Below, piece after piece: positions 52,156-52,948 of a DNA stretch of 64,000 nucleotides. This stretch comes from Centroscyllium fabricii (lineage: Eukaryota). How positions within the stretch are numbered: position 1 is the first letter of the stretch; each line of letters begins with the position of its first letter. Both the position numbers and the translations under genes were made by a program. A model generated the notes under the pieces. That model was not told the origin of the DNA. It ran no database searches and was given only the letters and a program-made list of their open reading frames with translations. The stretch spans positions 221,712,001-221,776,000 of the forward strand of contig JBNRSN020000009.1 in the NCBI GenBank assembly GCA_051313645.2, given 5' to 3'.

Positions 52156-52948
52156 CAGGTTGAGCACCGTTAATCCGGCACGGGCGGGACCAGGCCCGTG
52201 CCGGGAAATGGAAAAAAACGAGAACACGAGTTTGGACACTGCGCATGCGCACCAGTCAAAATGGCAGCGCGCATGCGCGCAACATTGGTATTGGCTGGCG
52301 CGCGCATGCGCAGATCGTCCAATATTGGCCGCCGCGAAGTTTTTTGATGGGCTCAGGCTTTTGTGGCGTTCCGTTTAGGTTTTAGGGCTGTCGGGCAGCA
52401 GTGAAAGGCCGGTCTTGCGGGGGGAGGCAGGAGGGTGGCGCGGGTCGGGGGGGAAAGGAGGGTGGCGCGGGTTGGCGGGGGGGCAATTTATCCAATCCCG
52501 TTTTGCTTTCAATTGTAAGAGGTCACACGGCGCCAGGCTGTGGTCCAACGGTTTTAGTTGGGGTCACGGGCTTTCGGAGCGCCGCTTCCCCGTCAGGTGA
52601 TGGGGGAGCGGCGCTCCGAAGGCCCGTGATTTCGAGTGGGACTTTTGGACTACAGCCTGGTGCTGTGTGGCTTCTTACAATTGTCCATCCCAGTCCAACA
52701 CCAGCACCTCCACATCATGGCTTCAATTACAGTTATCGATAAAATAACCGGCGGCCGTATTGAATTATCTGTGCATGCGCTAACCTTCCGGCGACGCATG
52801 CGCAGATCATTCAAAACACCCGCAGATCATTCGTTGAAGCCACGATGGCGGCTGCCATTTTGCGCATGCGCAGTGCAGTCGGGGCAATTTGTGCCGGCAG
52901 ACTGAAGCTGCCGGCTATTCGGTTACCGGATTAACGGTGCTCAACCTG
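52156..52948. mobile_element. Tigger-like MITE carrying a nested palindromic Penelope-type insert
   Basis: TA|caggttgagcaccgttaatccgg ... ccggattaacggtgctcaacctg|TA; internal similarity to 16075-16693. Confidence 0.93.
52510..52717. mobile_element. Palindromic (head-to-head) Penelope-type insert, A>G hypermutated
   Basis: 52510-52600 aligns without gaps to 46816-46906; 52598-52712 aligns to its reverse complement. Confidence 0.85.

What the first reader, a model, noticed from the sequence alone, without database searches (positions are those of the whole stretch)
52510..52717. Palindromic Penelope-type insert that looks like an ADAR-hyperedited RNA written back into the genome
Seen: aligned by hand to the paralog at 46782-46906, the left arm (91 nt) has 18 differences, 12 of them A>G. 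The paired part of the right arm has 11 A>G, 3 T>C and 1 G>T. A>G falls on the same (+) strand in both arms and clusters (aaa>ggg, caaataaaac>cgagtgggac). It stops where pairing stops: the unpaired extension after about 52683 shows only one C>T and one G>A. All 7 T>C changes lie opposite an A>G in the other arm, restoring G:C pairs. Established: ADAR deaminates A to I in long dsRNA and reverse transcriptase reads I as G. Inference: a hairpin RNA was hyperedited, then retrotransposed, with some G:T mismatches repaired in the hairpin cDNA or carried from an earlier edited round. The hammerhead core is altered in both arms, so this may record host ADAR defence against ribozyme-bearing retroelements.
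Basis: partly seen in the sequence, partly recalled or inferred. Interest (0 to 1): 0.85.

Follow-up and report, generated by a model that had tools for sequence, protein, structure and literature searches.

The report
RNA edits copied into heritable DNA
This retroelement hairpin carries dense one-strand A-to-G changes, very likely made on RNA by the editing enzyme ADAR and copied back into the chromosome; it sits in a DNA transposon, a marker sequence from it occurs nearly 2,900 times in the genome, and dozens of other independent insertions, including copies of a host messenger RNA, carry the same mark.

Summary
Observation confirmed. Against 55 family matches the ancestral base is A at 22 of 23 A>G sites. 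The insert is a Penelope-like head-to-head hairpin with an 11-bp target duplication, inside a TA-flanked MITE; an edited 20-mer occurs 2,868 times.

It is not a one-off. In 19 other hairpins, paired arms show 311 of 754 A>G on one strand, the unpaired tail 2 of 106, T>C 14 of 727, with the 5' neighbour order U≈A>C>G. One LCOR gene holds an unedited hairpin in its 3' UTR; 13 retrocopies, one spliced, show 172 of 487 A>G in the arms against 23 of 3,821 outside, each with a different pattern. ADAR editing followed by reverse transcription is well supported.

Two corrections. The T>C changes came later: an older MITE subfamily has the A>G and lacks them. Defence against ribozymes is unsupported: ribozyme-free SINEs and a host mRNA are marked alike, and edited hairpins mostly look like passengers of LINE/SINE-tail priming. 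No unedited donor of this insert was found, and 3' G is not enriched.

The scan noted this phenomenon before, in this genome and others (unchecked notes). In print I found only retroviral precedents.

The parts
52156..52948 (.). Host MITE (non-autonomous DNA transposon) that amplified the edited hairpin; TA on both sides (52154-52155, 52949-52950)
   Evidence: 20 of 20 copies read have the same ends, TA flanks and unrelated outer flanks; 2,868 exact matches of an edited 20-mer
52156..52178 (+). Left terminal inverted repeat, 23 bp
   Evidence: sequence, self-match
52926..52948 (-). Right terminal inverted repeat, 23 bp
   Evidence: sequence, self-match
52504..52514 (+). Left copy of the 11-bp target-site duplication; its last 5 bases also match the arm
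   Evidence: identical duplication in the older subfamily; 3 empty-site elements hold it once
52510..52594 (-). Left arm: antisense Penelope-like pLTR segment, edited on the + strand (12 A>G against the family, counting 52540 and not 52592)
52599..52683 (+). Right arm, paired part: sense pLTR segment, 11 A>G
52597..52629 (+). Remnant of the minimal hammerhead: stem I 5' strand and C3 lost at the junction, A9 and A15.1 now G, U16.1 and the cleavage-site base now C
   Evidence: comparison with the intact motif in the paralog
52684..52717 (+). Unpaired Penelope 'tail', no A>G (0 of 8 A)
52718..52728 (+). Right copy of the target-site duplication
46782..46920 (-).
   Evidence: close to the family majority, 4 differing columns
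46870..46906 (-). Intact minimal type I hammerhead motif (core, 5-bp stem II, palindromic stem III, 4-bp stem I)
   Evidence: descriptor match: 1 in the window, 25 of 60 unedited loci, 0 in 50 shuffled windows; no Rfam hammerhead match

Best explanation
The insert is a Penelope-like head-to-head hairpin whose paired arms carry one-strand A>G changes, very likely made by ADAR on a transcript of the hairpin and fixed when that RNA was reverse-transcribed into germline DNA, and it sits in a MITE that carries it at many genomic sites. Steps: (1) shown: a Penelope-like element makes inverted insertions with target duplications, and one such insertion lies in this MITE family (empty sites exist). 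(2) Inferred: read-through transcription folds the arms into about 85 bp of dsRNA; ADAR edits about 40% of paired A and spares the tail. (3) Shown by sequence for the LCOR set, inferred for this insert: the edited RNA is reverse-transcribed, mostly as a passenger of LINE machinery priming at a downstream SINE/CR1 tail. For this insert I put the passenger route at about 55% and direct Penelope copying of an edited hairpin RNA at about 35%. (4) Shown: an older MITE subfamily carries 19 of the 23 G and no T>C set; the focal subfamily adds 4 A>G and 8 T>C, each T>C opposite an edited G. (5) Inferred: further RNA passage made these. I put antisense-strand ADAR editing at A·C mismatches at about 55% and arm-to-arm repair of G·T at about 35%. 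(6) Inferred from TIRs, TA duplications and unrelated flanks: DNA transposition multiplied the result to thousands of copies.
For: Family base is A. 19 independent two-arm loci, search pattern excluded: A>G 311 of 754 paired against 2 of 106 in the tail (p=1e-19), T>C 14 of 727, background A>G 33 of 1,872. 36.6 tail edits were expected from 5' context and 2 seen; the arm not used for selection alone gives A>G 193 of 434 and T>C 7 of 466. 5' neighbour U 0.56, A 0.54, C 0.31, G 0.25 (p=1e-6); 0.58/0.51/0.20/0.11 in the LCOR set; 0.46/0.35/0.29/0.10 in SINEs. LCOR: the source locus has unedited arms and a splice acceptor; 13 dispersed copies give 172 of 487 against 23 of 3,821; 11 of 13 end at the SINE tail; all 13 patterns differ, and 183 of 351 site pairs are incompatible with one origin. 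One copy runs in frame across the acceptor, so it is spliced. Edited arms occur without their partner, as do 21 of 29 edited SINEs within the 3-kb locus. A sense SINE/CR1 tail lies downstream on the edited strand in 16 loci against 2 for the mirror case, of 30 (p=0.0013). A_deamin-family exons lie on five contigs. Old against focal subfamily; the chance that 18 old edits all recur in an independently edited copy is about 2e-5.
Against: No 3' G enrichment in any set (p=0.81), although ADAR sites usually show it (PMC4365171, PMC3091650, passages). 5' G is edited at 25% in the 19-locus set. No unedited donor of this insert was found (0 matches to one exact 29-mer), so its RNA passage and route are inferred by analogy. 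Many edited hairpins keep exact Penelope ends and target duplications, which editing in place would also give. L091 has one edited arm (20 of 60 A) and one unedited arm (1 of 31). One of the 13 LCOR copies (L134, most of the hairpin deleted) has 0 of 22. The upstream LCOR exon was not found in the 12.5 kb fetched upstream. Five of the 16 downstream-tail loci are arm-plus-SINE cases; without them the count is 11 against 2 (p about 0.02 by hand). Edited loci were picked by patterns that force two or three G; only 43 of 63 Penelope matches and 30 of 76 SINE matches were fetched.
Confidence: 0.92

Rival explanations
1. In-place DNA-level change: the genomic palindrome was altered where it lies, by ADAR acting on the DNA strand of an R-loop or by RNA-templated repair from its own edited transcript.
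For: Exact ends and target duplications around many edited hairpins; L091 is edited in one arm only; ADAR can edit DNA in DNA:RNA hybrids in vitro (PMC12925331, passage).
Against: The LCOR source locus is unedited while its dispersed copies are edited, one of them spliced. Edited arms and SINEs lack partners. The edited strand follows the sense of downstream LINE/SINE tails, 16 against 2. Transposed MITE copies gain no new A>G: 0 of 783 and 1 of 480 site-copies.
Confidence: 0.04
2. An error-prone polymerase (pol eta or iota type, or the retroelement RT) inserted G opposite T while copying a hairpin.
For: It would give one-strand A>G. 5' A/U sites are the most changed, which overlaps the WA preference of pol eta (recalled). 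3' G is not enriched.
Against: About 40% of A changed with other substitutions at background; a sharp stop where pairing ends; 5' C sites changed at 20-31%; SINEs changed although their partner was not copied.
Confidence: 0.02
3. GC-biased gene conversion, or the 46.8 kb copy being the derived one.
For: Nearly all changes are AT to GC.
Against: Family base is A; 311 A>G against 14 T>C on one strand; no excess of AT>GC transversions; nothing outside the arms.
Confidence: 0.01
4. Add-on to the main explanation rather than an alternative: the edits record host ADAR defence aimed at ribozyme-bearing Penelope elements.
For: The hammerhead descriptor matches 4 of 43 edited against 25 of 60 unedited loci. 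ADAR1 restricts L1 in cell culture (PMC5224506, passages).
Against: The same mark lies on SINEs (403 of 1,500 A) and on LCOR mRNA copies. Edited matches are few: 50 against 75,356 unedited for the same 23-mer. The edited RNAs did integrate. L1 restriction did not need deaminase activity (PMC5224506).
Confidence: 0.1

Closest known systems
ADAR-type A-to-G hypermutation in avian retroviruses (Rous-associated virus U3; avian leukosis virus inverted repeat), as summarised in PMC12925331 (passages read; the primary paper PMC189466 was not held)
   Same: Nearly half of the A in an inverted repeat changed to G and recorded in DNA by reverse transcription.
   Different: Those were retroviral sequences. 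Here the mark lies in non-LTR retrocopies of host mRNA, SINEs and Penelope hairpins in a genome assembly, recurs at dozens of independent loci, has a source locus for comparison, and was then amplified by a DNA transposon.
APOBEC DNA editing of LTR retrotransposons fixed in vertebrate genomes (PMC4866542, PMC2873906; passages)
   Same: Deaminase hypermutation of a retroelement intermediate that still integrates and is inherited.
   Different: G>A from C-to-U on cDNA, in LTR elements. Here A>G on the RNA strand, confined to base-paired segments. The PMC4866542 filter selects G-to-A over A-to-G, so it was not built to report this.
ADAR hyper-editing of inverted repeats in transcripts (PMC3197674, PMC4365171, PMC3091650; passages)
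   Same: Dense A>G in long dsRNA, 5' G depleted, A·C mismatches preferred.
   Different: Known as a difference between RNA and DNA. Here it stands in DNA. 3' G enrichment was not seen.
Penelope-like elements with C-terminal GIY-YIG endonuclease, Neptune/Nematis type (10.1101/2021.04.23.441226, passages; PMC11167929, parts 1-2 of 4; PMC4209133, part 1 of 4)
   Same: Inverted 5'-truncated copy, 30-40 nt tail at one end, minimal hammerhead in the pLTR, CX4CxxC linker before the GIY-YIG-like motif.
   Different: Edited copies are not mentioned in the parts read. The RT core and clade were not tested here.

Membership tests
ADAR hyper-editing product | A>G on one strand, other changes at background | tested here: met
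   311 of 754 A>G against 14 of 727 T>C; 172 of 487 against 1 of 477
ADAR hyper-editing product | Limited to double-stranded segments | tested here: met
   tail 2 of 106, 36.6 expected; LCOR unpaired 23 of 3,821
ADAR hyper-editing product | G depleted 5' of the edited A | tested here: met
   weak in the focal copy alone
ADAR hyper-editing product | G enriched 3' of the edited A | tested here: not met
   p=0.81; no enrichment. A weaker preference than the 5' one (recalled), measured here on few distinct sites
ADAR hyper-editing product | Inosine seen in the source RNA | not testable with these tools
   needs RNA and DNA from the same animal
ADAR hyper-editing product | Host encodes ADAR-family deaminases | tested here: met
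   PF02137 exons on five contigs; genes not assigned to ADAR, ADAD or ADAT1
Processed retrocopy (LCOR set) | Intron removed, 5' truncated, ends at a LINE-type tail, dispersed | tested here: met
   1 of 13 reaches the exon start and is spliced; 11 of 13 end at the SINE tail; variable 5' ends; LCoR match E=1.9e-31
Processed retrocopy (focal insert) | Unedited donor with the same junctions | tested here: inconclusive
   0 exact matches to one 29-mer; empty sites found
Penelope-like element | C-terminal GIY-YIG endonuclease upstream of the pLTR | tested here: inconclusive
   Atlas neighbours at 0.97 carry PF01541 in 27-56% of members and a GIY-YIG-like motif is visible; Pfam scans found nothing
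Penelope-like element | Inverted 5'-truncated copy and 30-40 nt tail on one end | tested here: met
   arms end at two positions about 35 nt apart
Penelope-like element | Minimal hammerhead in the pLTR | tested here: met
   descriptor in 25 of 60 unedited loci, 0 in 50 shuffles; cleavage not tested
Penelope-like element | Telomerase-related RT domain by phylogeny | not tested
   only broken fragments recovered
Tc1/mariner-type MITE | Terminal inverted repeats and TA duplication | tested here: met
   20 of 20 copies; the pogo/Tigger likeness of the TIR is recalled
Tc1/mariner-type MITE | Partner transposase | not tested
   no search made; no transposase recognised among ORFs printed for three longer relatives

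The most novel reading that the evidence does not exclude
In this vertebrate ADAR acts as a recurrent germline mutagen by way of retroposition: any host transcript with an inverted repeat upstream of a SINE/LINE tail is written back with its edits, so the genome holds hundreds of single-molecule records of germline RNA editing. A DNA transposon itself went through two or three RNA editing rounds, one from the antisense strand that turned G·U wobbles into G-C pairs, before expanding to thousands of copies of a stronger hairpin.
Probability: 0.45. Interest if true: 0.88.

Novelty: new variant of a known kind. Interest (0 to 1): 0.78.

Why it matters
A-to-I editing is taken to be transient, with only C-to-U editing of cDNA (APOBEC) known to leave a broad heritable mark on vertebrate retroelements. 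Here RNA edits stand in DNA at dozens of independent loci, and one gene gives source and products side by side. This makes testable how often edited RNA re-enters the germline, how edited germline dsRNA was in the past (each retrocopy records one RNA molecule), and which strand and which RT copied a given insertion. It also shows that A>G-rich repeat subfamilies can arise in one step and so mislead divergence dating, and that a class II element can spread an RNA-edited sequence to thousands of sites.

Tried and rejected
A DNA search with the insert alone found no candidates, not even itself; the whole MITE worked. An empty-site pattern from the focal flanks gave 0; one from the older subfamily gave 3. 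An unedited hairpin at the MITE junction gave 0. A donor search for one arm-plus-SINE locus was swamped by a repeat, 40 of 660 candidates scored, inconclusive. Rfam gave only generic miRNA-hairpin matches below gathering score and no hammerhead. Pfam did not recognise the Penelope fragments; an Atlas search of an N-terminal fragment gave only DUF8422; one search was uninformative. Run search: no RNA holder listed. One search used the wrong strand. The tail and mid-UTR zones were mis-set. The 'new' row was mis-oriented. Ongoing G·T repair in DNA copies was not seen: T>C at G·T 2 of 433 against T-A 4 of 783 in 29 old copies; across the 19 loci 10 of 413 against 4 of 467, p=0.10. A TpG-specific glycosylase fits poorly: 2 of 9 converted T are in TpG against 4 of 11 unconverted. 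Sequencing artefact, derived paralog and GC-biased conversion were rejected as above.

Full report
Observation. The left arm has 12 A>G among 18 differences; the paired right arm has 11 A>G, 3 T>C and 1 G>T; the extension after 52683 has no A>G. The insert folds as one long hairpin with pairs 52510-52683. A search of the own genome (7.2 Gb; a vertebrate, probably a cartilaginous fish from repeat types I recall, not tested) fetched 30 family loci. In 55 matches from the 29 loci other than the paralog the majority base is A at 22 of 23 sites; 52592 is polymorphic.

What the insert is. Longer family copies run into a broken ORF with a CX4CxxC linker and a GIY-YIG-like motif. Atlas neighbours carry GIY-YIG in 27-56% of members; Pfam found nothing. 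Arms end at two positions about 35 nt apart, like the tail between two RT start sites described for an Anolis Penelope element (PMC11167929, parts 1-2 read). A minimal hammerhead of the kind in PMC4209133 (part 1 read) lies at 46870-46906 on the minus strand and in 25 of 60 unedited loci. An unedited 23-mer of the family occurs 75,356 times. On the edited (+) strand the insert reads antisense arm, loop, sense arm, tail.

The host. The insert lies in a MITE with 23-bp inverted ends and TA duplications. All 20 best copies read carry the same edited hairpin. An edited 20-mer occurs 2,868 times; that count includes both subfamilies below and some independent edited arms, and only a small part was read. 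Three related elements hold the insertion site empty, with the 11-bp target once. An older subfamily (189 exact junction matches, 30 read) has the same insertion with 19 of the 23 G and without the T>C set; one copy is a mosaic. From old to focal, 4 of 30 paired A became G on the same strand, and T>C arose at 9 of 20 T facing G and 0 of 30 T facing A (p=7e-5); one of the 9 (52588) faces a native G and is variable, which leaves 8. The T>C changes are thus later than the first editing. Copies made afterwards show no such bias, so this was a burst. A·C mismatches are preferred ADAR targets (19% against 4.4% relative frequency, PMC3091650, passages), and an antisense transcript of the old hairpin would present A·C at exactly these sites. 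I favour that over G·T repair, but neither is shown.

Is it a one-off? Two patterns that allow A or G and force two G found 13 and 50 places; 43 were fetched. For the pooled count I kept 19 two-arm loci. I dropped 5 repeats of the same place, 2 MITE copies, 1 tandem duplicate, 1 sister of a kept locus, 11 single-arm loci, 1 locus with only one arm edited (L091) and 3 weakly edited ones. With the pattern window and polymorphic columns excluded, A>G is 311 of 754 in paired arms and 2 of 106 in tails, T>C 14 of 727, background 33 of 1,872. Context predicts 36.6 tail edits; the unselected arm alone gives 193 of 434. The 5' neighbour order is U 0.56, A 0.54, C 0.31, G 0.25; 3' G is not enriched. 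The 5' pattern matches ADAR (PMC4365171, PMC3197674, PMC3091650, passages); the missing 3' enrichment counts against.

Source and products. Three edited loci shared flanks. A search with the unpaired upstream flank found a family. One locus on C1044 has unedited arms and lies downstream of an ORF matching LCoR (HTH_psq; PDB E=1.9e-31). Thirteen other copies were compared, after two near-identical duplicates were dropped: A>G 172 of 487 in the arms and 23 of 3,821 in unpaired sequence. All 13 patterns differ, one being empty (L134, hairpin mostly deleted), and 183 of 351 site pairs in 9 full copies cannot descend from a single edited founder. Eleven copies end at the SINE tail and 5' ends vary. 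The longest reaches the exon start: the source has a pyrimidine tract and AG there, while the copy continues in an open frame, so it is a spliced mRNA copy; the upstream exon was not within the 12.5 kb fetched. Three copies are also heavily edited in the SINE (17-35 of 64 A), for which the source has an inverted partner about 3 kb downstream that was not copied.

Route. In 30 independent edited loci (14 duplicates, sisters, MITE copies and weak loci skipped) a sense SINE/CR1 tail lies within 900 bp downstream on the edited strand in 16, the mirror arrangement in 2 (p=0.0013); adjacent RT frames are sense in 7 and antisense in 1 (p=0.07). A SINE pattern with three forced G found 76 places; of 30 fetched, one was an LCOR copy. 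The other 29 show A>G 403 of 1,500 against 42 of 1,497 in 23 unselected copies, T>C 13 of 2,457, 5' G 0.10, 29 distinct patterns, and no inverted partner within the locus in 21. Editing therefore follows RNA pairing in host transcripts, not ribozymes, and LINE-type tail priming is the likely usual route. It also explains why many edited hairpins keep their original ends and target duplications. For the focal insert no donor was found, so its route is open.

Comparison and novelty. The closest printed case is A-to-G change of nearly half the A in an inverted repeat of an avian retrovirus (PMC12925331, passages; primary paper not held). APOBEC G>A editing of LTR elements is the known heritable analogue (PMC4866542, PMC2873906, passages). 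ADAR1 restricts L1 without editing it (PMC5224506, passages). Of ten literature searches, seven aimed at a precedent (listings, some papers by passage) and showed no report of ADAR-edited retrocopies fixed in an animal genome; most subscription journals are not held and no supplements were read. One earlier scan note hints at a mammalian precedent that I could not find. The scan's own notes describe the same phenomenon in this genome and in others; I saw them after the analysis and do not count them as evidence.

Verdict. Real, recurrent and well supported as ADAR editing fixed by reverse transcription (0.92). The defence reading and the timing of the T>C changes need correction. New variant of a known kind; interest 0.78.

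Noticed in passing
G000:C1044:340896550-340899522 (L138, L178) and L128-L142, L059: LCOR-like last exon and 3' UTR with a Penelope hairpin and SINEs, source of at least 13 dispersed retrocopies. Further copies (L143, L145-L147) end at a second SINE further upstream that older copies lack.
   Followed up: yes
L080, L082, L089, L090, L092 (about 1455-1950 on the edited strand): An edited antisense arm followed directly by a full-length SINE, with no partner arm in the locus. A donor with a SINE in the hairpin loop would explain it; not found.
   Followed up: partly
L091:1247-1564: TSD-flanked hairpin with one arm edited (20 of 60 A) and the other not (1 of 31); unexplained.
   Followed up: partly
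L087:1423-1551: Single TSD-flanked arm whose changes read T>C on the Penelope sense strand, tail unedited; possibly copied from the opposite strand of an edited hairpin.
   Followed up: no
L199-L228: A>G hyperedited SINE copies across the genome (76 pattern matches); in some the tail repeats are changed too (L210, L213).
   Followed up: yes
L159 (G000:C1:571352860-571355887): MITE copy with an old-type left arm and a focal-type right arm, suggesting conversion or recombination between subfamilies.
   Followed up: no
L064 and L077: Edited hairpins at the same site of a CR1 3' region with different arm lengths and edit patterns; probably one donor or a preferred target.
   Followed up: no
window 8463-57446: About ten further MITEs of the same TIR family (for example 16073-16701, 40567-41302, 57082-57446).
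   Followed up: no
window 60603-62406, 50402-50713, 55034-55529, 40707-41126: Tandem arrays with 40-, 32-, about 48- and 26-bp units.
   Followed up: no
window 25680-25810 and 40375-40502: Two other hairpin-like segments that drew weak miRNA-family matches below gathering score; not examined for editing.
   Followed up: no
L094:1091-2443 and G000:C1044 about 340886.7-340887.8 kb: Long ORFs that look like Harbinger-type transposases (likeness recalled, not scanned), one inserted in a Penelope copy.
   Followed up: no
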